Positions 4,569 through 26,394 of a DNA stretch of 64,000 bases are shown here, piece after piece. Source of the DNA: a virus. Location of the stretch: positions 1 through 64,000 of IMG/VR virus record IMGVR_UViG_3300030116_004255. One strand, written 5' to 3'. The notes beneath the pieces were generated by a model. That model made no database searches, had not been told where the DNA came from, and saw only the letters and a list, made by a program, of their open reading frames with translations. Every line of letters begins with the position of its first letter. The stretch's first letter is position 1. Made by a program: the position numbers and the translations under genes.

Positions 4569-4802
4569 TTAGTCGTCACCAGCCCAGTTAGGATTACCTC
4601 TATATTCGTCATATATAGTTCTTTCATAGAGATCTTCCATAGATAAGTATATCTTTTTAGCAGTAATGTAGCCCTTTGTGATCAACCACTTATATGGCGC
4701 AGTAAATATCTTGTTTTCCCACTCTAAAAACTTATCAAACACCACACATACCTTCGCACTCATCATCAAATAAAGATCCCTGATAATCTTTTGGTTCTGC
4801 AA
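4569..4802 (-). CDS. Hypothetical protein (true start probably downstream)
   Basis: Fills the gap in the minus-strand operon. Confidence 0.4.
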   Translation of the reverse strand: MQNQKIIRDLYLMMSAKVCVVFDKFLEWENKIFTAPYKWLITKGYITAKKIYLSMEDLYERTIYDEYRGNPNWAGDD

Positions 4803-5619
4803 ATGTAGCCTCTCTTAGAGGTATTTTAGATCTATATAAGTATTGCTCTGAACCATCGTCATACTTTTTAAAGTTGGTTAAGGCAGCGGACTCGGAATTA
4901 GGGTTTCTTAACCACTCGTCAAACTCAACAGCATAAGCAAACTCTTCTGGGTAATGTTCTTTTAATCGTTTCCACTCTACATCATTGTGGTATGGACAAA
5001 TAATACAAGCAGATCTTGGTGGTTTCGGATAACCCTCTTTCTGTGTCCAGTCTATTATGTCTTGTCTTGTAATTTCCTCTTGTATATATGGATAGCAGTT
5101 AACCTGCCATTTTGTCATAGGCTCTTTTACTCTTTGTATTTCGTCAAAGGAAATACCCATAACCATTTCTACATATTTATTTCTTAAATTCTTAACACCT
5201 AAAATTTCTCTAACTTTTTCTTGTATTGGCCTGATCTTGTATTCAGCAGTACAAGTCCTTCTACCAAAACCCATTTTTCCGTCTGATTTTTTTATATAAA
5301 CAGGAATTAGTGCGTATCTACCTTCCTTAGCTTTGTAGTCGTTAATTATATGTCCTGTATTCATAGAGTTTCTTACAACTTCAAACTCAACACGGCCTTT
5401 CATTATCTTTTTTAAATATTTAAGCCACTCGTAAACTTCTTTAGGCTCATTACCAGTATCAGCAAACATTGCAATATCGACTGGTTCTATTTCTTCTCTA
5501 AGTAATTTAAAAACTAAAGCAGAGCTTTGTACTCCAGCACCTAAAGATAAAACTCTTAGATCTCGATCTCTTTCTAGTGTTTTTTCGTCACCAACTTTTA
5601 ATTCCTGCATATAAGCCAT
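4735..5619 (-). CDS. PAPS-reductase-like (PP-loop adenine nucleotide alpha-hydrolase) Fe-S protein
   Basis: LSLGAGVQS PP-loop, FADTGNE, RTCTAEYKIRP, PRSACIICPY and C-terminal ECEGMCGV. Confidence 0.8.
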   Translation of the reverse strand: MAYMQELKVGDEKTLERDRDLRVLSLGAGVQSSALVFKLLREEIEPVDIAMFADTGNEPKEVYEWLKYLKKIMKGRVEFEVVRNSMNTGHIINDYKAKEGRYALIPVYIKKSDGKMGFGRRTCTAEYKIRPIQEKVREILGVKNLRNKYVEMVMGISFDEIQRVKEPMTKWQVNCYPYIQEEITRQDIIDWTQKEGYPKPPRSACIICPYHNDVEWKRLKEHYPEEFAYAVEFDEWLRNPNSESAALTNFKKYDDGSEQYLYRSKIPLREATFAEPKDYQGSLFDDECEGMCGV

Positions 5620-5620
5620 A

Positions 5621-5869
5621 TCAGTTCCCCTCTATAAATATACACTCTCCTGGACACTCCTCCGCAGACTCAATAACCAAACTTTCTTTACCTTTAGGAA
5701 CAACAGCTTGACCTTCTGCCCCCTGTGGATTACCGAGATCTTCTGCAAATATTTTGTCACCCTCTTTAACATAAGCTAGTCCATCATTTTGCATTACAAA
5801 AACTTCTGGACATATCTCTGCACATAAACCATCTCCTGTACATAAATCTTGATCAATCCAAACTTTCAT
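5621..5869 (-). CDS. Ferredoxin (3Fe-4S/4Fe-4S, actinobacterial type)
   Basis: IDQDLCTGDGLCAEICPEVF...AEECPGECI. Confidence 0.9.
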   Translation of the reverse strand: MKVWIDQDLCTGDGLCAEICPEVFVMQNDGLAYVKEGDKIFAEDLGNPQGAEGQAVVPKGKESLVIESAEECPGECIFIEGN

Positions 5870-6605
5870 TTTTGTTTCTTCTTGTTATTTCCCTATATCC
5901 GCCTGTAAACTTAGATCTTAATCGAAAAGACTCATTATCTATGGCTTTGTGTTCAGTATCACTAAAAAGCTCCACCGCTAACTCAGTTTTTTCTCTTTTA
6001 AACGGTATGCAGTGTAAAAAAGGTGTTCCTCTTTTAATAATAGTGTCACCTTCAGCATGCCAGATACTAGGAAAATTTACTTGATGGAAACTGTCTGTTT
6101 CAACAATTCCAGGAATTACGGTAAAGTCGTCATTTTTATGTAATAAAGGTGGTATAAAAAGTGTTGACCAACCTGGTGGTGTCCAAAAAAACCAGGGACT
6201 AGTAAATTTTACAGCTCTTTTATAATCGCTATCTTCAAGAGGATAAGTAGAAAACTGCTCATTGTCGTGAAATTCTATATGACTGCTTGGTAAGTTTATT
6301 TGGTTTGTTTCAAAATGAAATGTATCACCGTGTCTTTGTACCAGCATGTCGTACCACATAGGTATAATGTATCCCTGCGTAAAGTAGTCAACAACTGCTG
6401 GACATTTTTTAATTGTATGACTGTTGTAATCTTTAAGCATTTCCCCCATTTTTGGAAATGGTTGTATATCTAGTCTAGCTAGATCAAGTGGTAAGTTTTG
6501 GAACCAATCAGGGATCATCTGTCCTGCTGGTACTGGTGGTGCAGTGTCAATTAAAGCTGGCGACATAGTTGCAAACTTTATTTCATTTTTTTTAATCCAT
6601 TTCAT
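5853..6605 (-). CDS. DUF6065-like (dUTPase-like beta-clip) protein, paralog 1
   Basis: KKCPAVVDYFTQGYIIPMW, PW.FWTPPGWS, PGIVETD and RGTPFL..IPFKRE shared with 7915 and 25421. Confidence 0.6.
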   Translation of the reverse strand: MKWIKKNEIKFATMSPALIDTAPPVPAGQMIPDWFQNLPLDLARLDIQPFPKMGEMLKDYNSHTIKKCPAVVDYFTQGYIIPMWYDMLVQRHGDTFHFETNQINLPSSHIEFHDNEQFSTYPLEDSDYKRAVKFTSPWFFWTPPGWSTLFIPPLLHKNDDFTVIPGIVETDSFHQVNFPSIWHAEGDTIIKRGTPFLHCIPFKREKTELAVELFSDTEHKAIDNESFRLRSKFTGGYREITRRNKNESLD

Positions 6606-7110
6606 TTATACCTCTTTTAAAAAACCAATGATCAGGCTCCGCATAATGCAAAAACAACATACCAACTTGATTTGTTTCTGGATTAGGGAACTTTGATCTC
6701 CAATGCTCTTGATCTTCACCATAAAAAGCTAAGGCCTGATTGTCCCCTAAAGTATATTCTTTACCCTCTACATATAAAGGCCACGGTGTATTTTGATACA
6801 AACACAGATCTAAAGTATATGTACAAGCGTTATCGTCTTTATGTGGTAATAACTCTGCCTCTGTACCTTCGTAATGTGCAAACAATATGTAAGTCTTTTT
6901 TAAAGTATCAGAGTTAAATATTTTTTTAGCTTTTTGTTCTACGCTTGACAAATATGTGCGCATTTCTGGATAATCGTAATCAGATACAGAATATCGACCA
7001 AAATAACTATCATAACTAAATGTCTTATGTTTACTTTTAAGTAGATTTCTAACATAATTAAAACTACCAAAATCTAGTAGGCTATCAATAACCTTTACTT
7101 CTTGAACCAT
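6592..7110 (-). CDS. 2OG-Fe(II) oxygenase
   Basis: HKD...EHWR...LHY facial-triad pattern. Confidence 0.8.
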   Translation of the reverse strand: MVQEVKVIDSLLDFGSFNYVRNLLKSKHKTFSYDSYFGRYSVSDYDYPEMRTYLSSVEQKAKKIFNSDTLKKTYILFAHYEGTEAELLPHKDDNACTYTLDLCLYQNTPWPLYVEGKEYTLGDNQALAFYGEDQEHWRSKFPNPETNQVGMLFLHYAEPDHWFFKRGINEMD

Positions 7111-7928
7111 TTTTTCTTCGGTAATAATTTTTTTGGTCTACGAGCAAGTGCGTCAGTGTATAAAGTATTTGTTTCTCTTCTGTTTATTGCTGAACCTACA
7201 ATCATATTCCATCTTTTACTAAATTTTTCGTTCCACTCTACAAACTCTATTTTCACTGGTTTAGAAAAGAGTATGTTAAACATTACAGTATCGTGGTTTA
7301 ATTCAAGTGTATCTTGTGTTGTGTCTGTCCACTCAAAAGCCCAAGATAAACCCCTAGTCCAAGCGTGTATAGGCATAAAACCACCAATTAAAGATATTGG
7401 TAGATTTTTACCTGCGTTTCTATCACTAGGCACTACATCAAGCCAAACTTCTGGATCATCTGTAAAAAACATAAAAGGCATAGTTATTTGCATAACAGGT
7501 TGATTAGGATTAGCCCAGGCCTCTTTTTCCTCCATAATTACATCATTAAAAGGTCCGTGATGTTTTACAGCACCGTGATAATTAGCAGAAAAATTAAAAC
7601 CACCAAAACGATCAACCTCGTCAGCAAATTGATTTTTACCTAAATTTACTTTTACATGACTATAAGGGAAGTACATTTCATAAAGTCTATTTCTTTGAAA
7701 CTGTGTAGATACACAACCATTTGGAGCTTTTACAAACTTACGAGGCATACCATAATTAATTACAGGGATACTTCTTTCTTCTTCGTGTTCCTTACCAGCT
7801 ACATCTGCAAGTGGTTGAGGTATTGTAAATGCAACGACTGGTAAATTTCTATTACTTTCCCTTAATGGTTTTTCCCAAATACTTGCTATATCAGGTATTT
7901 TTATTGGGCATTTGTTAAATAATCCCAT
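7095..7928 (-). CDS. Divergent DUF6065-like paralog
   Basis: Weaker GC...GGFMPIHAWTRGL similarity; likely start MGLFNK at 7928. Confidence 0.45.
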   Translation of the reverse strand: MGLFNKCPIKIPDIASIWEKPLRESNRNLPVVAFTIPQPLADVAGKEHEEERSIPVINYGMPRKFVKAPNGCVSTQFQRNRLYEMYFPYSHVKVNLGKNQFADEVDRFGGFNFSANYHGAVKHHGPFNDVIMEEKEAWANPNQPVMQITMPFMFFTDDPEVWLDVVPSDRNAGKNLPISLIGGFMPIHAWTRGLSWAFEWTDTTQDTLELNHDTVMFNILFSKPVKIEFVEWNEKFSKRWNMIVGSAINRRETNTLYTDALARRPKKLLPKKKWFKK

Positions 7929-8727
7929 CTTCTTCCCACCTCTTTCTATTTTTTTGAGTAAGCCAACGGTAATAACCGTTTTGTCTAGTTCTTTCCGCAG
8001 CCCTACTCTTATCATAATATTCTTTATCTTGTTCGTCCATAACCCTTACATCTAAATTTGGTAGAGTTTCTCTTTTAAATGGTATAACTTGTATCAATGG
8101 CATACCCTGTCTAAATATTCTTTCACCTGTACCGTGATAGATAAAAGGTATATTCATTTGATGATATGAGTCTGTTTCAACTAAAGCTGGCATAATTTCT
8201 AGATCTAGATTTCTGTGATACCACGGATCTACTATCATAACAGACCAACCTGGAGGTGTGACTATATCCCAGGGATTTTCAAATTTTAGAGCAGTATTAA
8301 ATGAGTGTTCTAAGTAAGGCATCTCACCTATTGATTTGCGATCATGGAAAGTTATTGTGTTTTCAAAAGCGTGTTTGTTATACCAGTTCAAACCAGTTTC
8401 TTTTGTATGATCTATTTTTAAATCCAGCCACAGGGGTATGATGTATCCTTCATACATTATATCTTTAACACTAGGACACTTTTTAAGTGAGTTATCCTTA
8501 TATGGAACAGTATTCCAACTTTCATCTTTCAAAGCACCGTCTTTACCGTCACGCATTTCAGTCCACTCACGCTGTAAATTTTTATACCAAGCTGGTACAA
8601 ACTCTTTAGCTGGTCTTGGCGGTGCTAGATCAATATACTCTGGTTTCTGTGTTAAAAATTCTATTGTATCAAATTTTAGTTTGTGCTTTTTTGTTTCTAA
8701 AAATCTGTTGTACTTTTTCCCCATCAC
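7915..8727 (-). CDS. DUF6065-like protein, paralog 2
   Basis: LKKCPSVKD...GYIIPLW, NPWDIVTPPGWS, ETDSYH and QVIPFKRE. Confidence 0.6.
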   Translation of the reverse strand: MMGKKYNRFLETKKHKLKFDTIEFLTQKPEYIDLAPPRPAKEFVPAWYKNLQREWTEMRDGKDGALKDESWNTVPYKDNSLKKCPSVKDIMYEGYIIPLWLDLKIDHTKETGLNWYNKHAFENTITFHDRKSIGEMPYLEHSFNTALKFENPWDIVTPPGWSVMIVDPWYHRNLDLEIMPALVETDSYHQMNIPFIYHGTGERIFRQGMPLIQVIPFKRETLPNLDVRVMDEQDKEYYDKSRAAERTRQNGYYRWLTQKNRKRWEEDGII

Positions 8728-8734
8728 TATATTC

Positions 8735-9442
8735 CTACTCCAGTAATAGATCCGCAGTCATTACTGCTTGTAAGTGATCTTCAGTTTGAGCAGTAAATTG
8801 TTCTTTTAGTGATATTGTGTCATCAGACTCCCAGTGAATAATATTTACACTAGAAAAATTACTTTGCAAATATGAAATAGCAGTATTAAGAGAAGTTATC
8901 AGATCAGGCCTCCAATTTATTACTACTTTTACACCAGTATTGTTTGCAATAGTAGTTTCTGCACCTTTTAGTACATCTAACTCTTGTCCATTTACATTTA
9001 TAACAATTAGATCAAGATCGGTTAGTCCTAAACTATCAACCGTAATAATATCTACTTCTTCATTTGCGTCACCAAAAATTAGATCTAACAAAGCACCAGA
9101 TTTATTGTCTGCAAAATAATACATATTACCTGTACCGCTCTCATTACTACAAGCCTTTTCTATATTTGTTGCAGTATCAAAATTACCATTCAATATAGTA
9201 AACCTTTCGCTTACTGGTTCTATATTTATAGTTTCAACAGACTCAGCTTCCAATATACCAGTTGCTACACCTACACCAGCACCCACAATTAGTGCTTTTG
9301 AAAAGCTACTTGCATTTTCTTTAAGCCAAAACTCAACAGACGGATTTATGTGTCCAAGTAAATCTACTCTTCCAAATTCTGTATGGTCAGTTTCGTCAAT
9401 ATTAATAGTTATACCATTTCTAAATAGTTGTGATTGTGTCAT
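8735..9442 (-). CDS. FkbM-family methyltransferase (degenerate motifs)
   Basis: IVGAGVG, IEPV, ITVDSL and DLIVINVNGQELDVLKGA (canonical KIDVEGxE altered). Confidence 0.65.
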   Translation of the reverse strand: MTQSQLFRNGITINIDETDHTEFGRVDLLGHINPSVEFWLKENASSFSKALIVGAGVGVATGILEAESVETINIEPVSERFTILNGNFDTATNIEKACSNESGTGNMYYFADNKSGALLDLIFGDANEEVDIITVDSLGLTDLDLIVINVNGQELDVLKGAETTIANNTGVKVVINWRPDLITSLNTAISYLQSNFSSVNIIHWESDDTISLKEQFTAQTEDHLQAVMTADLLLE

Positions 9443-9446
9443 AAAT

Positions 9447-10148
9447 CTATCCTAACATTTCTTGTGGTAAATTAGAACCTTCTGGAAAGTACATAGGTGG
9501 CATACCATCAAAGTCTAACTTATGTCCTAACCAAGTCACGATAGCATACTTAGTACCACTAATAACAGGCATAGCTTGATGTGCGTAAGCCCAATTACTT
9601 GGAAACAATACTAGTGCTGGTTTTTCTGGTTTTACCATTTCGTCAAAGTGAGTAAAGTATGTACCACCACCCTGATATTCAGAGGGGTTTAAAAGTATTA
9701 GCGCTGATAAATGACGAGGGTTATGTGGTGCATAATCACAGTGAGCTTTATACTCTTGTCCACCCTGATAACGCAATAATGTATATCCTTCGTCAAAATG
9801 TATATTCACTTCATACTTATTACAATATTCATTTACATAATCTTGTAATTTTGTTGCTAAAAGTGTTTGTATATCTTTTAAAGCAGAAAATTCTTTATCT
9901 TTACCGTGCTTAACCATTTGTCTTACAGTCCTGTGTTCAGGTGGTAAGGTAGCATATTTACTTATAGGAAATAACTTATTACTTCTTATTTGACCGCCTT
10001 TATGTCCTTTACCTATACCTGCGTCTTCAAACTTAATTTCAATATTTTCGTCTTGATCAATGTTTTCTATAACATCTATTATTTTTTTAGACACCTCGTC
10101 ACTTAAAAAATCCTCGTATATCTCTACACAACCCATTACTATTTTCAT
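9447..10148 (-). CDS. 2OG-Fe(II) oxygenase (prolyl-4-hydroxylase-like)
   Basis: LLRY..GQEYKAHCD, YQGGGTYF and FPSNWAYAHQAMPVISGTKYAIVTW. Confidence 0.9.
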   Translation of the reverse strand: MKIVMGCVEIYEDFLSDEVSKKIIDVIENIDQDENIEIKFEDAGIGKGHKGGQIRSNKLFPISKYATLPPEHRTVRQMVKHGKDKEFSALKDIQTLLATKLQDYVNEYCNKYEVNIHFDEGYTLLRYQGGQEYKAHCDYAPHNPRHLSALILLNPSEYQGGGTYFTHFDEMVKPEKPALVLFPSNWAYAHQAMPVISGTKYAIVTWLGHKLDFDGMPPMYFPEGSNLPQEMLG

Positions 10149-10852
10149 AATATTTGTCTCCCTGATAAGTTTTCTAGATCCTCTCCGTCTAAATATGAAT
10201 CTAAATCAAATCCACTAGAGCAGGATACTAAAAAAGCTGACTTTCTACCATTAAGTAAAGGTGTTGTAGCGTGAGAAAAAACAAATGAACTAGGCATAAT
10301 AACAACTGTTCCTGCTGGTGGTTTATAAGCACCATTATCAAAATATCTAAAATCTAAACCACCACCCTTAAAATTATCGTTTAAATATGTAAGTATTGTT
10401 ATACGCCTAAGAAATGGTGCGTTCCAAAATCTACCTGTTTCAGGATTTCTAGTAGATCTATTGTCGCCATGATAATTCATAAATTTTGGTGGTCTGTAAG
10501 TTATATACTGGTATTGCTCCATCCAATGTATTTCGTCTTTAACATCTGGGTATACATCACAATACTCATTTATTTTATCCAGTGCATTTTGTTGAACTTG
10601 CCAAAAAAAATCTTGACTTTCTTTGTGTCTAAATTCTCTTTCTGGATCAAACCTTATAGGACCATTTACATTTTTTACAGTTTGATTATTTCCAGGCTGG
10701 CTTAGATCTTCCTCTGTTAAATTGTCTTTCCACCTATCTACTTCTGAATCCATTAAATCAACAATACCCTCTGGAACTTCTAAACACTTTTCCCAAGCTA
10801 ATACACCAGGAACTATTTTTTTAATTTCAGCTTGTTTCCAAAGTCTATTCAT
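10145..10852 (-). CDS. 2OG-Fe(II) oxygenase (prolyl-4-hydroxylase-like)
   Basis: YHGD, YLNDNFKGGGLDF and MPSSFVFSH...GRK. Confidence 0.88.
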   Translation of the reverse strand: MNRLWKQAEIKKIVPGVLAWEKCLEVPEGIVDLMDSEVDRWKDNLTEEDLSQPGNNQTVKNVNGPIRFDPEREFRHKESQDFFWQVQQNALDKINEYCDVYPDVKDEIHWMEQYQYITYRPPKFMNYHGDNRSTRNPETGRFWNAPFLRRITILTYLNDNFKGGGLDFRYFDNGAYKPPAGTVVIMPSSFVFSHATTPLLNGRKSAFLVSCSSGFDLDSYLDGEDLENLSGRQIL

Positions 10853-11319
10853 TCCTCTTCCCCAACAAGTTCAAAAACTGATAGTTCTGAGTCAGCACAT
10901 AATTTATCATCTTTGAAAAATTTTAGAATATACCAACCTGGATCTAGCCTTATATGATCAGTTCCCCATCTACTTTTTTGATGTGTATAACTTAATGGAT
11001 GCTTGCTTACTAATTTATGATCTTTTTGTGGATTGTCATAATCTTTAGACCATATTTCTAATTTAAATACTGGGTTCTCTTCAAACTCTGCGAAATCATC
11101 ATGAAGTAAAAATTTTGTAAAATCGGTATTAGCACAGGTATCAGGCACTAACAAATGTTGATATTCAGGTATTTCAAAGCTGTGTTCTTTGTCTTCAAAC
11201 TTTATATAATGTTTGTTATTTTCTGATACACCGTGGTGTATTTCTTGAAACTTACCTTCCCACTGATCTTTACAGTCGGCTAAAGACTTATCTTTAGGTA
11301 CAAAATATACCTTCTTCAT
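10849..11319 (-). CDS. Hypothetical protein
   Basis: GGAGG RBS; coupled to the oxygenases. Confidence 0.65.
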   Translation of the reverse strand: MKKVYFVPKDKSLADCKDQWEGKFQEIHHGVSENNKHYIKFEDKEHSFEIPEYQHLLVPDTCANTDFTKFLLHDDFAEFEENPVFKLEIWSKDYDNPQKDHKLVSKHPLSYTHQKSRWGTDHIRLDPGWYILKFFKDDKLCADSELSVFELVGEEE

Positions 11320-11339
11320 GATCTCCTCCCTTTACAGAT

Positions 11340-12251
11340 CTAAACTAGATTTGGTCTTGTTGTAAGTAATTCTTCAAGATAGTCAACGGTGTTCGCTAAT
11401 ACATCGCTTTTAGTTGCTTTGTATGCTGCTACATCGGCTTGAAAAGCATCTTCGTCAAAATCTGCTGGTACTTCACCGAGTTTATAAAGACAATTAGCAA
11501 TCGCTTTGTCAACCATTTGTAATGCGTCAGCTTTTTCAACATTTAAAGCGTCTGCGTCTATTGATAAGTCCATACTTTCTCCTATATCGTAAGTATTACC
11601 ACACAAGTATAACATTAAAACTGTCGAGATTAAGTCCATATCATGACCTACTTCTAGGTCTAATGTTTCTTGCGGTATTTGTATTGTAGTAGATTTTCTA
11701 TAAGTATTGTAGATTTTTGCATAGGTATAATGTAGTTCAGTATCTACACCAGGATTTCCGTGTTCTACTGTGTCGTGTAGTGTTTCGTCATCATCAGATA
11801 CTTCTTCGCTATATTGTAAAACAATTCTTTGAGGGGCTATTGCCGAATAAGTATTGTCTGTAAATAAATATTCTGAATCTTCTTTTATAAATACTTCTGA
11901 ATAGTATGTTTCACCAACTATATATTTATAACCTGTTTCTCCACAGAAACCGCATAATGGTTCAGTACAAAATGAACCGCATAATTCTTTACCGTACTCT
12001 ATACCAAAGTCTTTTCTGCGAATATAAACATCAGCTACCTTTGATCCGTTAAAGTCTAGATCTACATAGCCAAGATCTCCTTCAACTGTAAAATCTAAAC
12101 CAGTTCTAGGAAATTCGTGAAACTCGCCGTCTGTGTCATTATCAGGAAACAAAAGATCTTTATCACCCTGATGTTCTCCAGGCATATAATACAACTGGTA
12201 GTCATCGTAATTTTCGTCTGATCTTTTATAGTGGATTCTAACTGTCGCCAT
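11340..12251 (-). CDS. Acidic protein with CBM41/pullulanase-N-like start and Cys cluster
   Basis: VRIHYKRSDENYDDYQLY resembles the CBM41 N-terminus; CGSFCTEPLCGFC. Confidence 0.5.
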   Translation of the reverse strand: MATVRIHYKRSDENYDDYQLYYMPGEHQGDKDLLFPDNDTDGEFHEFPRTGLDFTVEGDLGYVDLDFNGSKVADVYIRRKDFGIEYGKELCGSFCTEPLCGFCGETGYKYIVGETYYSEVFIKEDSEYLFTDNTYSAIAPQRIVLQYSEEVSDDDETLHDTVEHGNPGVDTELHYTYAKIYNTYRKSTTIQIPQETLDLEVGHDMDLISTVLMLYLCGNTYDIGESMDLSIDADALNVEKADALQMVDKAIANCLYKLGEVPADFDEDAFQADVAAYKATKSDVLANTVDYLEELLTTRPNLV

Positions 12252-12335: not shown

Positions 12336-13019
12336 TTATACCTTAAATGTCTTGACTGTACCAGCCGCGTATCCTGTCACATCAGTAGCTACACCTGTCA
12401 AAGGTATGCTTTGAGAAACTATAAATATTACACCACCACCAGTAGTCGTTTCACCACTAGCTTCAATAGTTCCATACCCCTGTAATTTTCTTGCACAGAG
12501 AATAACAATTCCACCACCGTGATTAACACTATCTCCAGCGCCACCCTGTAATGCTTCTGCTGTTGTTTGGCCACCGTGATGTACAAGAGCTTGTATAGCA
12601 ATGTCAGGATGATTAAAGTATTCTGCACCTTCGCCTGGTGCGGTAGCTGTATAACCATTACCATTACCACCTAAAGAGTTTGTGACATTACCAATAGCAC
12701 CACCTCTTAATGTTCCTGAAGTAGAAACACCGCCTACTCGTCCAATTTTCGTATCACTTTGGTTTGATGAAGTAGGTGCTAAAGCACATACATTTCTTAC
12801 AAAAACTCTATACCCTGCTGTATCTAAAACTATTCCTGGATTTACTGTCAAATTGTTATAGTGCATATCTCTGGTCAAAGTTGTATTAGAAGATATTGTG
12901 ACATTACCATCCATACCAGATCCATAAATGCTATCTGGTATCACATCATAGGTTGTGTAATCTGGTGGTATATAACCGTATTCTTTTATATTGTATTCAC
13001 CTGTTCTTGATATTGGCAT
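12336..13019 (-). CDS. Gly-rich tail/virion protein, paralog of 13028..14368
   Basis: IYGSGMDGNVTISSNTTLTRDMHYNNLT matches IYGYGQDGDVTIAANTTLSRDMYYNDLT; GGGIVIL repeats. Confidence 0.7.
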   Translation of the reverse strand: MPISRTGEYNIKEYGYIPPDYTTYDVIPDSIYGSGMDGNVTISSNTTLTRDMHYNNLTVNPGIVLDTAGYRVFVRNVCALAPTSSNQSDTKIGRVGGVSTSGTLRGGAIGNVTNSLGGNGNGYTATAPGEGAEYFNHPDIAIQALVHHGGQTTAEALQGGAGDSVNHGGGIVILCARKLQGYGTIEASGETTTGGGVIFIVSQSIPLTGVATDVTGYAAGTVKTFKV

Positions 13020-13027
13020 AATTACTC

Positions 13028-14368
13028 CTATGATCCTGGATCAGTATCGTTTGCATTGATGTTATATACTGTCACGACTGATCCTGCTGTTGCTGTTCCT
13101 GAACCACCTGTACCTGCTGCTGCTGCAACTGTTAAACCGCTAGGTAGTGGTTTCTTACCTGATATTAAAACTACTGCACCACCACCAGCGTTATAAGATA
13201 CTGATGCTGTGCCTTTTGATCCGCCTGCGCCACCTGGGTGATAGTTTGTTGGATTAGAGTCATAGTTTGTTGGATTGTTGTTTCCACCATAAGAATATCC
13301 ATAAGAATATCCATAGCTATACCCATAGCTATATCCGTAAGAATAGTTGTTTCCAGGATACGAATAGTTATTTCCTGGATAGGAATAGTTATTACCTGGA
13401 TGATAATGTGCGTAATGATAATGATAAAAACCACCAGGAAAGTTATTTATTGGTGGACTTGGGTGCCAATGATAATGTGTATGTGAGCTACCTGGATTAG
13501 ATCCATAGTTTGTAGAGTTAGATCCATAGTTGGTTGGATTTGATCCTGAGTTTGAACCATAGTTTGCACCGTAATTTGCTCCATAGTTTGCACCATAGTT
13601 GGTTGGGTTAGTATTTCCAGGATAAGAATAATTATTACCTGGTGTTTGTGCGTCTGGTGCTGGTGCGCCGTCTGTTCCGTCAGAACTTGCTGTCGAGTCG
13701 TCAGCGTCAGCTCTAATTACACCATCTCCTACAATATTTTTTGCTACGATTAATACAACACCACCGCCGACTGCACCTGTGCCTGCTGTGGCTGCATTAC
13801 CGTCTGCACCTCTACCACCATCAGCACCGACAGTCTGATAATCAGACCAGTTAGTATCACTACCGTCTGAACCACTTGTTGGGGTTCCTGTTATCGCACC
13901 GTCGTCTGCGCCTGATCCACCACCTAAAAATTTAAATGTATCTGTTGCTTGATCAAACTTTTTACCTGCTAAAGCTGTTGTTAAGTTAAAAAATTCACTT
14001 GATCCGTCAAAAAATTGATTGTTGTTATGATCACTATCAGTTTGTTCTGATGATCTACCACCTAAAGTATCTGTTGCTGCTGTTCCTTTAGCAAAACCAC
14101 CTTTTAAAGTACCAGCAGTTGATTTATTACTAAACCTACCGATACGAGAGGTACCGTCTGTAAATGTTAATGTACCACGAACAAATAAACGATAACCGTT
14201 AGTATCTAGTGTGCAACTAGAGTTTATTGTTAGATCGTTGTAATACATATCTCTTGACAAAGTAGTATTAGCAGCGATAGTGACATCGCCGTCTTGACCA
14301 TAGCCGTATATCTCGTCTCCGCCTAGTCTGTCAATAAAGACTGGCTCTGGTACATCTATAATGGCCAT
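13028..14368 (-). CDS. Gly-rich tail/receptor-binding protein with His/Tyr/Asn repeat insertion
   Basis: Start MAIID overlaps the upstream stop; Gly-rich scaffold with a ~135-aa repeat insert. Confidence 0.7.
   Translation of the reverse strand: MAIIDVPEPVFIDRLGGDEIYGYGQDGDVTIAANTTLSRDMYYNDLTINSSCTLDTNGYRLFVRGTLTFTDGTSRIGRFSNKSTAGTLKGGFAKGTAATDTLGGRSSEQTDSDHNNNQFFDGSSEFFNLTTALAGKKFDQATDTFKFLGGGSGADDGAITGTPTSGSDGSDTNWSDYQTVGADGGRGADGNAATAGTGAVGGGVVLIVAKNIVGDGVIRADADDSTASSDGTDGAPAPDAQTPGNNYSYPGNTNPTNYGANYGANYGANYGSNSGSNPTNYGSNSTNYGSNPGSSHTHYHWHPSPPINNFPGGFYHYHYAHYHPGNNYSYPGNNYSYPGNNYSYGYSYGYSYGYSYGYSYGGNNNPTNYDSNPTNYHPGGAGGSKGTASVSYNAGGGAVVLISGKKPLPSGLTVAAAAGTGGSGTATAGSVVTVYNINANDTDPGS
13235..13642 (-). 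repeat. Coding tandem repeats (12-nt GANY/GYSY and 21-nt PGNNYSY/GSNPTNY units)
   Basis: Directly visible in DNA and protein. Confidence 0.9.
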
Positions 14369-14697
14369 TATGTCACCTCGACACCAGAAATATGTATATT
14401 CACGGAAGTAGCTGCTGAACATTTTGCTGCTACTGAAGCGCTAGCTGGTATAACCATAGCCAAGTCAATAACTGTGGTTGTATTAGCTGATACAGTAATA
14501 TCACCAAAAATGATATGTTGATCTCCTGTTGTATCCCCTGAAGGAATAATTTTGATCTCTACTGTTCTATCAGTAGCGGTATAGTTCGCTAACATAATTT
14601 GCTTGATAATACACTTATTAGAATTACTGAATACTTGTGCTTCAGAAGTTCCTAATGCTGTGACCTCTGCTAACTCCGCTGCATTATATATCGCCAT
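14368..14697 (-). CDS. Small beta-rich virion structural protein
   Basis: Beta-strand pattern ending NIHISGVEVT; lies among tail genes. Confidence 0.6.
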   Translation of the reverse strand: MAIYNAAELAEVTALGTSEAQVFSNSNKCIIKQIMLANYTATDRTVEIKIIPSGDTTGDQHIIFGDITVSANTTTVIDLAMVIPASASVAAKCSAATSVNIHISGVEVT

Positions 14698-14705
14698 TTA
14701 TTCTC

Positions 14706-15161
14706 CTATAATCCCATCCATACCAACGCTTCATTTGTGAATAGTTGGACTGGATTTACTTTTTTCATTGCTGTTGCTGAATTGTCATATAACATGACTA
14801 AATCGTTATCTTCGTCAACATCTATTGATGTACCGTCTGTTAATCTTGTAGCGTCAATCGCTATATCGACAGCACCGCTTGTTGCACCACCAGAAATACC
14901 TGAAGTTGCACCAGTTGTGACACCTGTGACATCACCAACATCTAGTTGCAACCAAGCGCTTGAAGTTCGCACTTCTAGTCGGTCATCGTCAGTATTGTAG
15001 ATCACCATACCTTCAGTTGCAGTTGTTATAGCATCTCTTTCGGTTTCTGTATAGGCAGGTATTAAAGGTCCGCCGTCTACATGGCCATTTTGAAATTCTG
15101 CTAGACCTGTTGAATCAGATCCAGTCATTGCTACTCTTATTAATTGTTGTCTATCAGCCAT
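14706..15161 (-). CDS. Short tail fibre-like protein
   Basis: TETERDAITTATEGMVIYNT and GDVTGVTTG...GGATSGAV fibre modules. Confidence 0.65.
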   Translation of the reverse strand: MADRQQLIRVAMTGSDSTGLAEFQNGHVDGGPLIPAYTETERDAITTATEGMVIYNTDDDRLEVRTSSAWLQLDVGDVTGVTTGATSGISGGATSGAVDIAIDATRLTDGTSIDVDEDNDLVMLYDNSATAMKKVNPVQLFTNEALVWMGL

Positions 15162-15785: not shown

Positions 15786-16307
15786 TTATTCTTCGACTTT
15801 GTACAAGCTAAATACACCAGAGGAAATATTGGCACCTCCAATATTCAGCATTTGTACGCCATCGTGAGTTCCTGTACTTTGTAATATTCCACCACCATGA
15901 AAACTTCCCATTCTTCCCTGTGATGTATTCCTGTGGATATTTTCATAAACTATGTAGCTGTATTGTGAGCTGTCGTTAAAGTTGTGTAAATAAGCTACCA
16001 TATTAAAAGCATTATTCATAGATGTACCAAGTCCTTGACTAAGATCAATATTTCCTGTGTTGTCAATGATTGTTCCACCTGAGCTTGCATCGTTATACAA
16101 TGTGTAGTGTCTGTAATCGTAATCAGAAGAAGTGACAGCACTACCACTTGCAGTAAACCTTATTCTTATATCTTGATTTGTTCCATCCATATACAACCCC
16201 TGAACAACGAGCATATATACATTTGTGCTGTCTATACCTGTTAATATGACTTGGGCTGTATCGCTACTGACAGTAGTAGTTGTTATAAGATTTAGTTTCC
16301 CTGCCAT
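15786..16307 (-). CDS. Tail fibre head-like beta-sandwich protein, paralog 3
   Basis: LNLITTTTVS...YMLV...GVFSLY pattern shared with the next two genes. Confidence 0.6.
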   Translation of the reverse strand: MAGKLNLITTTTVSSDTAQVILTGIDSTNVYMLVVQGLYMDGTNQDIRIRFTASGSAVTSSDYDYRHYTLYNDASSGGTIIDNTGNIDLSQGLGTSMNNAFNMVAYLHNFNDSSQYSYIVYENIHRNTSQGRMGSFHGGGILQSTGTHDGVQMLNIGGANISSGVFSLYKVEE

Positions 16308-16846
16308 TACTGTTCCAATCCATATATTCTGCAAGTAAGAGTTTCAATATCATAGCTATCTCTATTTGTAAAAGATATACCTGTAATACTTGTGTTAGCT
16401 TTATGAACACCACCACCTCTAATATGTACTCCTATTTTTGTTGAAGATGGATATGCCATAGATCCTGTTTCTTGAAAACTTTGGTATGTGTAATTACTAC
16501 CAAATGGATCATAGATCCACATTGATCCATTACCATTACCATGATTATCATCTTTGTCGTGATATATCAAAGCAAACTCATCTCTATTACTACCACCCAA
16601 ATCAAATGGTGCATTTGTATATCCACGAAACATTAAATTTCTATGATCATAGTTAGCTGTAATTTCTGTTCCTGTGCTATCTACTAACCTAACATCCATA
16701 CTATTGTTTTCTCTTTGTGTATCAGCACTTGTATTGTTGAATTGAACAAAATAGACTTTGTAGTCAGCAGAAAATACAGGATTAATAGTAATCTTGTTTG
16801 CATTTCCCTGCGTCACTTCTGTAGTGCTAATTAATTTTAAACTCAT
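16307..16846 (-). CDS. Tail fibre head-like protein, paralog 2
   Basis: LKLISTTEV...FSADYKVY...ITGISF...RIYGL. Confidence 0.6.
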   Translation of the reverse strand: MSLKLISTTEVTQGNANKITINPVFSADYKVYFVQFNNTSADTQRENNSMDVRLVDSTGTEITANYDHRNLMFRGYTNAPFDLGGSNRDEFALIYHDKDDNHGNGNGSMWIYDPFGSNYTYQSFQETGSMAYPSSTKIGVHIRGGGVHKANTSITGISFTNRDSYDIETLTCRIYGLEQ

Positions 16847-17400
16847 TGTTTCAATCCATATAAACTTGCATCTAAAACATCTATTGTTCCTGATATAGGG
16901 TACAACCTGATTCCGTCGACATTACTAAATTGTGGTAAATATCCACCACCGAAAACTACACGAAATCCACCTGTGCTATGTATTTGACCATGCATCATGT
17001 TTTGATAACTTTGTGTCGAACTACCACCTAATTCATAAAACCATGAATGACCACTACCACTTTCCCCTGCTGCGTTTCCTGTACTATAAATTGCTCTTAT
17101 TCTGCTGTAAGTTGTAGTTAAACTATTGGCTGTTCCTGTGTCCATATATTTATAACCAAATTGATAAACTGAATCACTTTCTAAAGTTCCATTTTCAAAA
17201 AATCTTATTCCTAGTGCTTTACTGTCAGTATTAGGTTGAAAATTCGTGACAGTCAAAAGATGAGCTTTATAACTACTTTCTTGAATATCGCTAAAATCCA
17301 TAACACTATCGCCTGTTGTAGCTGATTGATGTTGTATGAGTTCTAAATCCCCACTTGCTACTGCACCTAGAAGTCCAAATCTTGCGCTACCTAATGGCAT
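16843..17400 (-). CDS. Tail fibre head-like protein, paralog 1
   Basis: LELIQHQSA...YKAHLL...DGIRLY...SLYGL. Confidence 0.6.
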   Translation of the reverse strand: MPLGSARFGLLGAVASGDLELIQHQSATTGDSVMDFSDIQESSYKAHLLTVTNFQPNTDSKALGIRFFENGTLESDSVYQFGYKYMDTGTANSLTTTYSRIRAIYSTGNAAGESGSGHSWFYELGGSSTQSYQNMMHGQIHSTGGFRVVFGGGYLPQFSNVDGIRLYPISGTIDVLDASLYGLKQ

Positions 17401-25420: not shown

Positions 25421-26185
25421 CTACCTTTTATCTTTAAATCTTTGAGTAATTGCTCTATAAGAGTTTTTGAATTTAGAATTAAGTTCACTCTTTTCAACTC
25501 TATCTAAATCTATATCTTTTTGTGTCATTTGATCAACTTTAAAATCCCAATCTTCTCTTTTAAAAGGTATGACTTGTATAAAAGGCGTTCCTCTGTCTAT
25601 GACTACATCTTTTGTTGAGTGCCATATTGTAGGAAAGTTTATGTGGTGATAGTGATCTGTTTCTACTATGCCAGGCAACACAGTAAATCTTTTTTCAAAC
25701 TGATACACAGGTTGCATAAATAAAACTGAATATCCTGGTGGTGTGTAAATGCGCCACGGATTATTAAATTTTACCCCTTCTTTAAAATCTGTTTTCTTTA
25801 ATGGCCAATTATATATTTGTTGATTCGAGTGAAAATCTATACCATATTGGGACATACCTTTATTGTCCCACTCCAAAGTTTCCATATCTCTTTGAACTAA
25901 AAAGTCAGCCCACATTGGAATAATATAACCCTGAGTTATTAGATCGACAATAGCAGGACATCTTTTTACTGTTCCACCACTCCATTTAATAGCCGTTTCT
26001 TTTGATTTTCCAAAGTAATTTGGTTTACCTTTTTCGTGAACAGCTTCTTGAATTATGTATTCATTCATACTTTTAAACCAATTAGGTATAAAAAATTTAG
26101 ATGGTTTTATACGAGCATAATTTTCAAGACCTGCAACATCCGTCTTAAATTCTATAAACTTGTTTCCCCCCAAATCAAATTTCAA
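25421..26185 (-). CDS. DUF6065-like protein, paralog 3
   Basis: VKRCPAIVDLITQGYIIPMW, NPWRIYTPPGYS, PGIVETD and RGTPFIQVIPFKRE. Confidence 0.6.
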   Translation of the reverse strand: MKFDLGGNKFIEFKTDVAGLENYARIKPSKFFIPNWFKSMNEYIIQEAVHEKGKPNYFGKSKETAIKWSGGTVKRCPAIVDLITQGYIIPMWADFLVQRDMETLEWDNKGMSQYGIDFHSNQQIYNWPLKKTDFKEGVKFNNPWRIYTPPGYSVLFMQPVYQFEKRFTVLPGIVETDHYHHINFPTIWHSTKDVVIDRGTPFIQVIPFKREDWDFKVDQMTQKDIDLDRVEKSELNSKFKNSYRAITQRFKDKR

Positions 26186-26394
26186 TCGAATGTACCTCCT
26201 GCATCAGTATATTCAGTAGCTTTAGCGTTAATTTCATTTTCTATTTCGGTAAGAATGTCATCTTCTTTATCAGTTCTATTTTTGTAATTGTAATGTTTCA
26301 TTTCAAGTTCTTGCAATTCATCTTTAAGTCTTTCAAGTAATTCTTCATTAGACTCTGATTCTGGCTCTTCAAAAATTTTATATGTTATAGTCAT
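26182..26394 (-). CDS. Small acidic coiled-coil protein
   Basis: Coupled to the central fibre gene. Confidence 0.6.
   Translation of the reverse strand: MTITYKIFEEPESESNEELLERLKDELQELEMKHYNYKNRTDKEDDILTEIENEINAKATEYTDAGGTFD

What the first reader, a model, noticed from the sequence alone, without database searches (positions are those of the whole stretch)
13235..13642. Mirror-symmetric His/Tyr/Asn hairpin needle inserted in a tail protein
Seen: the outgoing arm is PGNNYSY, PGNTNPTNY, four tetrads (GANY x3, GSNS), three heptads (GSNPTNY, GSNSTNY, GSNPGSS) and HTHYHWH. After a PSPPINNFPGGF turn, the return arm is YHYHYAHYH, three heptads (PGNNYSY x3), four tetrads (GYSY x4), GGNNNPTNY and DSNPTNY. 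Unit lengths and copy numbers mirror each other about the turn although the arm sequences differ, which implies co-expansion of paired strands. The adjacent paralog (12336) has the same scaffold without the insert. Established: HxH motifs bind metal in trimeric fibre needles such as T4 gp37. Inference: a length-tunable antiparallel beta-needle with a metal-bound receptor-binding tip and dense Asn/His/Pro/Tyr modification sites.
Basis: partly seen in the sequence, partly recalled or inferred. Interest (0 to 1): 0.75.

Follow-up and report, generated by a model that had tools for sequence, protein, structure and literature searches.

The report
Fold-back repeat needle on phage fibre
A tail-region protein of an uncultured marine phage carries a tyrosine/asparagine/histidine-rich insert whose two halves have stayed exactly length-matched and mirror-ordered through dozens of independent changes, so the chain almost certainly runs out to a tip and folds back on itself as a thin projection of adjustable length.

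Summary
The gene (13028..14368, minus strand, 446 aa) holds a 138-aa insert: arm, HTHYHWH, 13-residue tip, HYHYAHYH, arm. The two arms mirror each other in unit lengths.

Comparative data support the fold-back reading.
- In 65 of 69 distinct homologous inserts the N-terminal arm is exactly 2 residues longer than the C-terminal arm, over 17 length classes (43-70).
- On a tree built from the scaffold alone, arm lengths changed at least 38 and 36 times, but their difference changed only 4 times.
- Unit boundaries coincide in mirror order (161 of 225). Tyr never faces Tyr (0 of 3294 facing pairs).
- All 8 His are invariant, and every tip keeps [IVLA]N[NS].
- No DNA or RNA pairing explains the mirror.

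Several points are not shown. AlphaFold2 monomer models leave the insert unresolved (pLDDT 31-50). Oligomer state, metal binding, receptor binding and modification are inferred only. The gene sits in a conserved cassette with two 2OG-Fe(II) oxygenases.

The closest known analogue is the T4 gp37 needle (50/50 stem inserted in a collar domain, HxH-iron sites). No sequence or fold homology to it was found.

This scan has met the same family, and other mirror-armed fibre needles, before on other DNA.

The parts
13028..14368 (-). Needle gene, 446 aa plus stop. The ORF is open up to 14422, but the likely start is the ATG at 14368.
   Evidence: Homologues start at the equivalent MxEIxIPEP. No Pfam or PHROG family.
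13652..14368 (-). Scaffold, N-terminal part (aa 1-239). Ends in the strand GGGVVLIVAKNIVGDGVIRADA and the linker ..APAPD.
   Evidence: AlphaFold2 pLDDT is mostly above 90 for aa 20-247. Aligns to the paralog with E 3.3e-25.
13484..13651 (-). Outgoing arm (aa 240-295, 56 residues): AQT, PGNNYSY, PGNTNPTNY, GANY x3, GSNS, GSNPTNY, GSNSTNY, GSNPGSS.
   Evidence: DNA periods 12 and 21.
13463..13483 (-). His motif 1, HTHYHWH (HxHxHxH).
   Evidence: All four His are invariant in 69 of 69 distinct inserts.
13424..13462 (-). Tip loop PSPPINNFPGGFY (13 residues) with the conserved [IVLA]N[NS] core.
   Evidence: 48 of 48 distinct tips hold [IVLA]N[NS]. Tip lengths are 12-15 or 21.
13400..13423 (-). His motif 2, HYHYAHYH (HxHxxHxH).
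   Evidence: All four His are invariant in 69 of 69. The order of the 7- and 8-residue motifs is swapped in 23 of 69.
13238..13399 (-). Return arm (aa 324-377, 54 residues): PGNNYSY x3, GYSY x4, GGNNNPTNY, DSNPTNY, H.
   Evidence: DNA periods 21 and 12.
13031..13237 (-). Scaffold, C-terminal part (aa 378-446): PGGAGG.., strand GGGAVVLISG, C-terminus.
   Evidence: pLDDT 82-97 for aa 370-440.
12336..13019 (-). Paralog with the same scaffold and no insert (227 aa).
   Evidence: Present next to the needle gene in 38 of 38 close loci.
14368..14697 (-). Conserved 109-aa upstream gene (unknown; partner or chaperone candidate). Its stop overlaps the needle gene's start.
   Evidence: tblastn match directly upstream in 38 of 38 close loci and in most of the 42 distant loci.
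14706..15161 (-). Conserved 151-aa upstream gene (phrog_1325, unknown function).
   Evidence: Present in 38 of 38 close loci.
9447..10852 (-). Two 2OG-Fe(II) oxygenase genes (10145..10852 and 9447..10148). Conserved neighbours and candidate modifiers.
   Evidence: PF13640 with E 1.1e-6 and 2.4e-14. Present in 36 of 38 close loci, the other two being cut by the contig end. An oxygenase match is present in 35 of 42 distant loci, the other seven having short downstream flanks.
8735..9442 (-). FkbM-type methyltransferase, part of the conserved cassette.
   Evidence: PF05050 E 3.7e-5. phrog_8156. Synteny.

Best explanation
The insert is a fold-back projection, a 'needle'. The chain leaves a compact scaffold domain and runs out about 63 residues (56-residue arm plus HxHxHxH). 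It turns in a 12-14-residue loop with a conserved hydrophobic-Asn-Asn core. It then returns about 62 residues (HxHxxHxH plus 54-residue arm), packed in register against the outgoing arm.

Shown:
- The register is kept unit by unit. 4-, 7-, 9- and 10-residue units face units of the same length.
- Tyr of one arm faces Gly, Asn or Pro of the other.
- YSY-type units mostly face TNY-type units.
- The arms grow and shrink by gain and loss of short repeat units, and only changes matched in the facing unit of the other arm persist. Length is therefore tunable (arms of 43-70 residues).

Inferred:
- The eight invariant His next to the tip form a clasp. By analogy with HxH sites of trimeric phage fibres, this most likely binds metal, probably iron, around a three-fold axis.
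- The needle would then be six-stranded, like the T4 gp37 stem, roughly 20 nm long if extended.
- The variable tip loop makes the host contact.
- The conserved oxygenase and methyltransferase genes downstream may modify the needle.
For: Arm matching:
- The outgoing arm is 2 residues longer than the return arm in 37 of 41 distinct arm pairs from the protein database. 10000 permutations gave a mean of 3.9 and a maximum of 13.
- The same holds in 37 of 37 parsed IMG/VR loci, an independent fetch.
- Combined, 65 of 69 distinct inserts match, over 17 length classes from 43 to 70.

Independence of the changes:
- On a FastTree tree of the scaffold alone (79 proteins), Fitch parsimony gives at least 38 changes of outgoing-arm length and 36 of return-arm length. 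The difference changes only 4 times.
- L029 and L030 (tree distance 0.027) differ by one residue in each arm, in the facing units: PGNNYSY/TNNYSY against GSNNTNY/GSSTNY.

Mirror order of units:
- 161 of 225 boundaries coincide at shift 0, against at most 51 at other shifts. Shuffles of unit order gave a mean of 39.2 and a maximum of 61.
- Boundary overlap (Jaccard index) is 0.577 within a protein and 0.093 across proteins.
- A protein's own return arm is the best or tied-best partner for its outgoing arm in 26 of 37.

Packing code (3294 facing pairs): Y-Y 0, G-G 3, Y-G 446, S-S 245.

Swapping of arms:
- Arm types are swapped between homologues: YSY-type on the outgoing arm in 50, on the return arm in 18, mixed in 11, with at least 12 switches on the tree.
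- The two His motifs are swapped in 23 of 69.

No nucleic-acid explanation: there is one 13-nt, 85% complementary inverted repeat, and the RNA minimum-energy fold does not pair the arms with each other.

Same design elsewhere on this scaffold (read directly):
- L041: three 9-mers, PRGGG, three 9-mers.
- L057: units of 7, 7, 9, 9, then a tip, then 9, 9, 7, 7.
- L043: 12-13-residue charged units on both sides of a turn.

Analogy:
- The gp37 needle D11 is an insertion into collar D10. Its stem arms are 882-931 and 960-1009, its tip is 932-959, and it holds seven iron atoms (PMC6957217 passages).
- HxH from three chains gives an octahedral Fe site in pyocin fibres, gp37 and the P2 and phi92 spikes (PMC6116203 passages).

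Context: the gene lies in the late module after the tape-measure, tail-tip fibre and large fibre genes, and before a lysis-type gene.
Against: - AlphaFold2 (monomer, 42-sequence alignment) gives pLDDT 31-50 and no secondary structure for aa 248-369. A second model, of a distant homologue with a charged repeat insert, is equally unresolved (pLDDT about 30).
- The arms hold 10.5% Pro and no aliphatic core. A regular two-stranded beta-ribbon is therefore unlikely.
- 4 of 69 inserts have unmatched arms: P0015 20/52, P0017 52/41, P0020 22/68, P0049 31/43.
- There is no sequence or fold similarity to gp37 or any solved fibre.
- The His residues are clustered beside the tip rather than spaced along the stem as in gp37.
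- Trimer state, metal, receptor contact and modification have no direct evidence here.
- Mutual information by offset peaks broadly at +1 to +3, not sharply at 0. Facing statistics at shift +2 are nearly as clean as at 0. The exact residue register is therefore uncertain by about 2.
Confidence: 0.62

Rival explanations
1. The fold-back is the same, but the projection is a single-chain two-armed ribbon on a monomeric scaffold. The eight His lie on one face and bind metal within one chain (His4-type sites), or act as a pH-sensitive or stacking clasp.
For: All covariation data need only intrachain pairing. AlphaFold2 folds the scaffold confidently as a monomer (pLDDT above 90). The window protein has no collagen or coiled-coil trimerisation signal.
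Against: A roughly 60-residue two-stranded ribbon without an aliphatic core is hard to stabilise alone. AlphaFold2 does not form it. Known HxH fibre sites are inter-chain and trimeric. 3 of 42 family members hit Pfam Collagen (best E 3.7e-4), and collagen repeats form trimers (own knowledge).
Confidence: 0.2
2. The arms are paired, but the mature needle is held by enzyme-made chemistry rather than by metal. The neighbouring 2OG-Fe(II) oxygenases and methyltransferase would hydroxylate or methylate the arms (X-Pro-Gly, Asn, His), possibly leading to cross-links. This is not exclusive of the best explanation.
For: - The cassette of needle, paralog, two 2OG oxygenases, FkbM methyltransferase and DUF6065-like genes is kept in 36 of 38 close loci. 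Oxygenase and DUF6065-like genes also sit next to scaffold genes in 35 of 42 distant loci.
- The window insert holds 7 Pro-Gly dipeptides, and the family mean is 5.4.
- Iyer et al. 2010 proposed that dioxygenases co-encoded with collagen-like or tail-collar proteins hydroxylate them. They also described cyanophage dioxygenase arrays with a dUTPase-fold protein (PMC2938197 passages).
Against: No chemistry is shown. The oxygenases also accompany scaffold genes whose inserts have 0-3 His and different repeats (L041-L045, L049, L050), so the link is not specific to this sequence. The eight His are invariant, which fits metal or catalysis-independent packing at least as well.
Confidence: 0.12
3. 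The insert is an unstructured low-complexity linker or adhesive bristle (Tyr/Asn/Gly/Ser-rich), and the mirror is not due to physical pairing.
For: Low pLDDT and no secondary structure in two AlphaFold2 models. The composition is N 21%, Y 18%, G 12.5%, S 12%, P 10.5%, with almost no charged or aliphatic residues. Four inserts have unmatched arms.
Against: A disordered tether gives no reason for arm lengths to change together at least 34 times, for unit lengths to mirror, or for Tyr never to face Tyr. It also gives no reason for eight invariant His and a conserved tip core.
Confidence: 0.05
4. The mirror is an assembly artefact of a repeat-rich region.
For: Logan contigs of four marine runs all break inside the arms, and no record spans the insert. 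The repeat DNA is up to 90% self-similar.
Against: L003, from another IMG/VR record, gives the same arms at 99% identity. 65 distinct inserts from many samples obey the same rule. Random misassembly would break the match between arms, not create it.
Confidence: 0.01

Closest known systems
Receptor-binding needle of phage T4 long tail fibre protein gp37 (domain D11 inserted in collar D10; PDB 2XGF as named in PMC6116203)
   Same: Both are an elongated out-and-back insertion into a compact domain with equal-length arms. The gp37 stem is 882-931 and 960-1009, 50 residues each. Here the arms plus His motifs are 63 and 62 residues. Both have a small tip at the far end and HxH motifs (PMC6957217 passages).
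   Different: - No sequence match, even with a family profile at E up to 10, and no Foldseek match.
- The scaffold did not match the collar domain.
- His residues form two dense motifs beside the tip, not seven spaced HxH sites.
- The arms are tandem 4/7/9-residue Tyr/Asn/Gly units that vary in number between close relatives.
- The tip is a 12-14-residue loop (15 or 21 residues in one subfamily), not a 28-residue subdomain.
- Trimer state and iron are unproven here.
HxH iron sites of R-type pyocin fibres and of the phage P2 gpV and phi92 central spikes
   Same: HxH motifs are present. In those proteins, three chains give six His to one buried Fe, thought to help folding and registration of the trimer (PMC6116203 passages).
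   Different: Those proteins have one site per fibre or spike, in an unrelated fold. Here there are up to four non-overlapping HxH per chain in a fold-back. Metal was not tested.
HxH-rich tail fibres of marine phages (Alteromonas phage R22Y; the 'Ferrojan/Trojan horse' idea)
   Same: A marine phage fibre-module protein with several conserved HxH motifs, proposed as an iron ligand (PMC11705849 abstract and passages). The window's central fibre also has four spaced HxH-type motifs.
   Different: R22Y's motifs are spaced along an N-terminal shaft of a podovirus fibre. It has no mirrored repeat arms. Iron binding is likewise only predicted there.
Dioxygenase gene arrays linked to fibre-like or collagen-like substrates (Iyer, Abhiman, de Souza, Aravind 2010, PMC2938197)
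   Same: 2OG-Fe(II) dioxygenases are clustered with a putative protein substrate in phage or bacterial genomes. A dUTPase-fold protein lies in the cyanophage Syn9 array (passages). Here two oxygenases and DUF6065-like genes follow the needle gene.
   Different: That paper proposes secondary-metabolite roles for the phage arrays, and names collagen-like or tail-collar proteins as substrates in bacteria. This scaffold family and its mirrored insert did not appear in the passages I read.

Membership tests
T4 gp37-type fibre needle (collar D10 + needle D11) | Out-and-back elongated insertion in a compact domain, with equal arms | tested here: met
   Arms are matched in 65 of 69 distinct inserts. 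The insertion point lies between two scaffold strands that are adjacent in the insert-free paralog. The gp37 topology is taken from PMC6957217.
T4 gp37-type fibre needle (collar D10 + needle D11) | HxH motifs | tested here: met
   HTHYHWH and HYHYAHYH. All eight His are invariant in 69 of 69.
T4 gp37-type fibre needle (collar D10 + needle D11) | Sequence or fold homology to the gp37 collar or needle | tested here: not met
   phmmer found 0 hits at E up to 1. The profile search found only antibody and BMS1 chance hits at E up to 10. Foldseek against PDB found nothing below E 3.9.
T4 gp37-type fibre needle (collar D10 + needle D11) | Homotrimer with Fe(II) held octahedrally by six His | not testable with these tools
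   Only monomer AlphaFold2 was available. No metal or oligomer assay.
Collagen-like triple helix proteins (PF01391) | Gly-X-Y repeat region matching the Pfam model | tested here: not met
   The window protein has 0 Pfam families at E up to 1. Only 3 of 42 family members hit Collagen, best E 3.7e-4. The BFVD 'collagen-like' structural hits have TM 0.18-0.39.
Mtd-type tropism determinant (Mtd_N, PF18454) | Mtd_N domain | tested here: not met
   Not found in the window protein. It is present only in the distant hit P0074 and in one Atlas cluster at score 0.83, a lead only.
Intrinsically disordered low-complexity region | No position-specific constraint between distant segments | tested here: not met
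   Length, unit order and residue class are coupled between the arms. The low pLDDT is compatible with disorder but does not prove it.

The most novel reading that the evidence does not exclude
The needle is a protein 'stem' that evolves like an RNA helix, by compensatory insertions and deletions in facing repeat units. It may also be an enzymatically tailored, iron-loaded device. In that reading, the conserved downstream oxygenase and methyltransferase cassette hydroxylates the X-Pro-Gly/Asn/His-rich arms, and the invariant His clasp beside the tip loads up to four metal ions per trimer. This would give an abundant marine phage lineage a fibre of adjustable length, chemically hardened and carrying iron.
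Probability: 0.2. Interest if true: 0.85.

Novelty: new variant of a known kind. Interest (0 to 1): 0.7.

Why it matters
The out-and-back needle of T4 gp37 is the textbook receptor-binding tip. This family reaches the same topology with unrelated sequence and a modular repeat code.

- The evolutionary record (at least 34 compensated length changes, swapped arm types, Tyr-over-Gly packing) gives a residue-level contact map without a structure. That is rare for proteins.
- It offers a natural system for studying how fibre length and register are set.
- It offers a design principle for length-tunable protein rods.
- It is a concrete, widespread marine candidate for testing the idea that phage fibres carry iron. 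17 runs held at least half of the sampled words of the stretch, and the 20 holding rows came from 12 studies. The family profile found 3087 cluster representatives at E up to 0.001, of which 88 at E up to 1e-30.
- The conserved oxygenase cassette makes post-translational tailoring of a virion protein directly testable.

Tried and rejected
**Approaches that gave nothing**
- Pfam, PHROGs and tblastn against 50,697 phage records gave nothing for the needle or its paralog.
- The nearest cultured terminase is at most 27% identical, from Thermus phages. No cultured relative or host can be named.
- PDB sequence searches, by single sequence and by profile, gave no real hit. Foldseek against PDB gave nothing. 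BFVD gave only low-TM 'collagen-like' matches, which I regard as matches of extended low-confidence coil.
- The ESM Atlas gave only viral hypothetical clusters. The Mtd_N lead was not confirmed by Pfam.
- AlphaFold2 did not resolve the insert in either job.
- I built a hairpin-only alignment trimmed in register (A2). MAFFT put gaps inside the arms and broke the register, so I did not fold it.
- Mutual information by offset was higher for the antiparallel than for the parallel arrangement (about 1.0-1.27 against 0.75-0.84) but had no sharp peak. I do not lean on it.
- The DNA or RNA pairing explanation was rejected.
- Genome contigs: only the N-terminal ~60-residue module is widespread across phyla. 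The full scaffold was seen only on two contigs of one marine gammaproteobacterial MAG. This is too weak to name a host.
- Sequencing runs: contigs of 4 runs from 4 studies all break inside the arms, and no record spans the insert. A 'goes back 42' joint in 2 runs hints at variants with two more heptads but cannot be linked to the other arm. No conclusion is drawn.

**Literature**
- No paper held DUF6065.
- No paper held any of five motif strings of the insert.
- These two searches, are my only basis for 'not found in print'. Subscription journals and supplementary files were not searched or seen.
- Bartual et al. 2010 (PMC2996694) is not held. What I say of gp37 comes from passages of PMC6957217, PMC6116203 and PMC11705849.
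- Merkel and Regan 1998 ('aromatic rescue of glycine') was seen only as a reference-list entry.
- The figure of about 3.3 Å per residue for an extended chain, and the S16 gp38 and squid-beak comparisons that I considered, are from memory and were not tested.

**Rows dropped before counts**
- Of 74 database hits, 23 were not parsed. These were fragments lacking an anchor (P0004, P0022, P0052-P0057) and the distant hits P0058-P0074.
- Of the 80 IMG/VR loci, L013 (a truncated gene) and L041-L082 (other insert types) were not in the arm counts.
Full report
**The observation**

The finding's coordinates, 13235-13642, are the 136 codons from the first PGNNYSY to ..TNYHP.

The likely start is the ATG at 14368. 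It overlaps the stop of the upstream ORF (TAATG), has GAGGTGA five bases upstream, and gives the N-terminus that all homologues share. This makes a 446-aa protein.

In that numbering the parts are:

| Part | Residues | Sequence or length |
|---|---|---|
| Outgoing arm | aa 240-295 | 56 residues |
| His motif 1 | aa 296-302 | HTHYHWH |
| Tip | aa 303-315 | PSPPINNFPGGFY |
| His motif 2 | aa 316-323 | HYHYAHYH |
| Return arm | aa 324-377 | 54 residues |

Read from the tip outwards, the unit lengths are 7,7,7 / 4,4,4,4 / 9 / 7 in both arms. Tandem Repeats Finder shows the same mirror in the DNA: periods 12 and 21 on one side, 21 and 12 on the other.

**Context**

The window is part of an 81,955-base IMG/VR virus record. 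It has a siphovirus-type late module:
- terminase, portal, prohead protease and HK97-type capsid
- tape-measure protein
- a 1284-aa tail-tip fibre with an S74 chaperone domain
- a 2110-aa ORF

After three small paralogs come a 151-aa gene, a 109-aa gene, the needle gene and a 227-aa paralog. These are followed by a PUD-like protein and a small ORF (10849..11319) without a clear family. Then come two 2OG-Fe(II) oxygenases and an FkbM-type methyltransferase. After those come DUF6065-like proteins with two ORFs of unknown family between them (7095..8015 and 6592..7110). A PAPS-reductase-like protein and a DUF5675/peptidoglycan-binding protein complete the stretch.

The needle protein has no Pfam or PHROG family and no tblastn match in 50,697 phage records. 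The terminase is at most 27% identical to any cultured phage.

hhalign of the family profile against the paralog gives E 3.3e-25 over scaffold columns 17-225. The paralog passes directly from the strand before the insertion point to the strand after it. 'Same scaffold without the insert' is therefore right.

**The comparative test: arm lengths**

The search for homologous proteins returned 74 proteins, of which 51 could be parsed with scaffold anchors and the two His motifs. They give 41 distinct arm pairs. In 37 of these the outgoing arm is exactly 2 residues longer than the return arm, while arm length ranges from 43 to 56. 10000 permutations of return arms among proteins gave a mean of 3.9 matches and a maximum of 13.

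An independent fetch from IMG/VR gave 80 loci. All 37 that carry this insert type obey the same rule and add lengths up to 70/68. Combined, 65 of 69 distinct inserts are matched, over 17 length classes.

**The comparative test: independence of the changes**

On a tree built from the scaffold alone (79 distinct proteins), parsimony needs at least 38 changes of outgoing-arm length and 36 of return-arm length. It needs only 4 changes of their difference.

Matched change has thus happened dozens of times independently. It is not one inherited state.

The closest pair, L029 and L030, differ by one residue in each arm, in units that face each other.

**Register and packing**

- Unit boundaries coincide in mirror order at 161 of 225 boundaries. 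Every other shift from -6 to +6 gives at most 51. Shuffling unit order inside the return arm gives a mean of 39.2, sd 5.8, maximum 61.
- A protein's own return arm is the best or tied-best partner of its outgoing arm in 26 of 37 cases. Boundary overlap (Jaccard index) is 0.577 within proteins and 0.093 across proteins.
- In 3294 facing pairs, Tyr never faces Tyr and Gly faces Gly 3 times. Tyr faces Gly 446 times and Ser faces Ser 245 times, both the highest values over shifts -7 to +7. Shift +2 is nearly as clean, so the exact register is uncertain by two residues.
- YSY-type units (PGNNYSY, GYSY) mostly face TNY-type units (GSNPTNY, GANY).
- Which arm carries which type is swapped among homologues: 50 YSY-out, 18 YSY-return, 11 mixed, with at least 12 switches.
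- The 7-residue and 8-residue His motifs are also swapped, in 23 of 69.

Such swaps keep a pairing but not a sequence. That is what a physical contact predicts.

**Controls against other causes**

The region has only one 13-nt, 85% complementary inverted repeat. The RNA minimum-energy fold (z = -2.09) does not pair the arms with each other. A nucleic-acid structure therefore does not explain the mirror.

A near-identical gene in another IMG/VR record (L003, 99%) has the same arms.

**The four exceptions**

| Protein | Arms (out/return) |
|---|---|
| P0015 | 20/52 |
| P0017 | 52/41 |
| P0020 | 22/68 |
| P0049 | 31/43 |

All four come from contigs of 2.2-9.2 kb. P0015 is 0.006 tree units from P0013, which has 54/52. 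P0020 has nearly the return arm of L030 (68) but a collapsed YSY arm.

Logan contigs of four marine runs all break inside the arms, so repeat collapse in assembly is plausible. Real deletion variants cannot be excluded.

**The wider family**

A profile search of 1.84 billion cluster representatives found 3087 at E up to 0.001 and 88 at E up to 1e-30. Dozens of the 150 listed align over the whole scaffold, with lengths of about 420-740 aa.

Inserts at the same point differ widely but repeat the design:
- L041 has three 9-mers, PRGGG, then three other 9-mers, and no His.
- L057 has units of 7, 7, 9, 9, a Cys-bounded tip, then 9, 9, 7, 7.
- L043 has 12-13-residue charged units on both sides of a turn.

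Only the N-terminal ~60-residue module is widespread in cellular genome bins.

**Structure**

AlphaFold2 with 42 sequences models the scaffold well (216 residues at pLDDT 90 or above). It leaves aa 248-369 at pLDDT 31-50 without secondary structure. A second job, on L043's protein, gave the same result.

No solved or predicted structure matched usefully. The wide VIA-align library was not available.

However, a monomer model built on an alignment that cannot place repeat units in register is weak evidence. It cannot outweigh the coupling between the arms. It does mean that beta structure is not shown. With 10.5% Pro and no aliphatic residues, the arms may be extended strands of a less regular kind.

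**The histidines**

All eight His are invariant in 69 of 69 inserts, and all 48 distinct tips keep [IVLA]N[NS].

In register, HxHxHxH faces HxHxxHxH. This gives two His-His pairs, then a one-residue bulge, then two more. This step is inference.

From the literature (passages read, not whole papers):
- In R-type pyocin fibres, gp37 and the P2 and phi92 spikes, HxH from three chains binds one Fe octahedrally (PMC6116203).
- gp37 has seven such irons, and its iron-binding His are essential (PMC6957217).
- The gp37 needle D11 is an insertion into collar D10, with stem arms 882-931 and 960-1009 and tip 932-959. This is the same topology as here.
- HxH-rich fibres of marine phages have been proposed as iron ligands (PMC11705849).

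The window's own central fibre has four spaced HxH-type motifs before its S74 domain.

**Neighbours**

The order 151-aa gene, 109-aa gene, needle, paralog is kept in 38 of 38 close loci. The rest of the cassette runs from the PUD-like protein through the small protein and both oxygenases to the methyltransferase and the DUF6065-like genes. Both oxygenases are kept in 36 of the 38, and the other two loci end before that region.

In 42 more distant loci, 35 have an oxygenase match near the scaffold genes. The other 7 have short downstream flanks.

The oxygenases also accompany inserts with 0-3 His. Any link is therefore to the scaffold family in general.

Iyer et al. 2010 proposed hydroxylation of co-encoded collagen-like or tail-collar proteins. 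They also described cyanophage dioxygenase arrays with a dUTPase-fold protein (PMC2938197 passages).

Modification of the needle remains an inference from synteny.

**Verdict**

The fold-back, length-tunable, co-evolving-arms reading is strongly supported (I put it at about 0.85).

My overall confidence in the full statement is 0.62. That statement adds a metal clasp, a trimeric six-stranded form and a receptor-binding tip. These rest on analogy and conservation alone.

The protein works like the gp37 needle but is not a detectable member of that family.

This scan has noted the same family on another genome (e1-5871295) and its gene cluster (e1-6088756). It has also noted several other mirror-armed fibre needles. 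I found no published description in the searches listed.

Noticed in passing
window 26394-30248 (-), last ~200 residues before the S74 domain: The 1284-aa tail-tip fibre carries four spaced HxH-type motifs (GHNHP, AHNHS, IHNTH, NHNHS) in an Asn/Gly-rich stretch, just upstream of its Peptidase_S74 intramolecular chaperone domain. A DUF6065-like gene (25421-26185) follows it.
   Followed up: partly
window 4735-12251 (-): A gene cassette lies downstream of the needle and its paralog. It holds a PUD-like protein, a small protein, two 2OG-Fe(II) oxygenases, an FkbM methyltransferase, two DUF6065-like proteins and a PAPS-reductase-like protein. From 5853 to 12251 it is conserved in order across 36 of 38 related viral loci.
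   Followed up: partly
L041, L043, L049, L057 (IMG/VR loci, family ORFs): Distant members of the same scaffold carry quite different inserts at the same point: Phe/Pro/Gly 9-mers, charged NEVRLVEGRVN-type 12-13-mers, about 430 aa of YATNYP-type repeats, and GHNPGGS/HPGNPFHHS units around a Cys-bounded loop. Those I read also show mirrored unit lengths about a turn.
   Followed up: partly
L083-L162 (genome contigs): The N-terminal ~60-residue module of the scaffold (YGxGxDGxVTI..RDMYYxNLT..TNGxRxFV) occurs in genome bins of many bacterial and some archaeal phyla, usually inside longer proteins. The full scaffold was seen only on two contigs of a marine gammaproteobacterial MAG.
   Followed up: no
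window 15786-17400 (-): Three tandem paralogous ORFs of 182, 179 and 185 aa, with no Pfam or PHROG family, lie between the 2110-aa fibre gene and the needle cassette. They are not conserved next to the needle gene in most related loci.
   Followed up: no
window 14365-14372: The needle gene's probable start ATG overlaps the stop of the upstream 109-aa gene (TAATG). The listed ORF start at 14422 adds 18 residues that no homologue has.
   Followed up: yes
window 13358-13399 in runs X2 and X11: Contigs from two marine studies show a 'goes back 42' joint inside the PGNNYSY heptad array. This implies population variants with two more heptads in the return arm. Linkage to the other arm could not be seen.
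   Followed up: no
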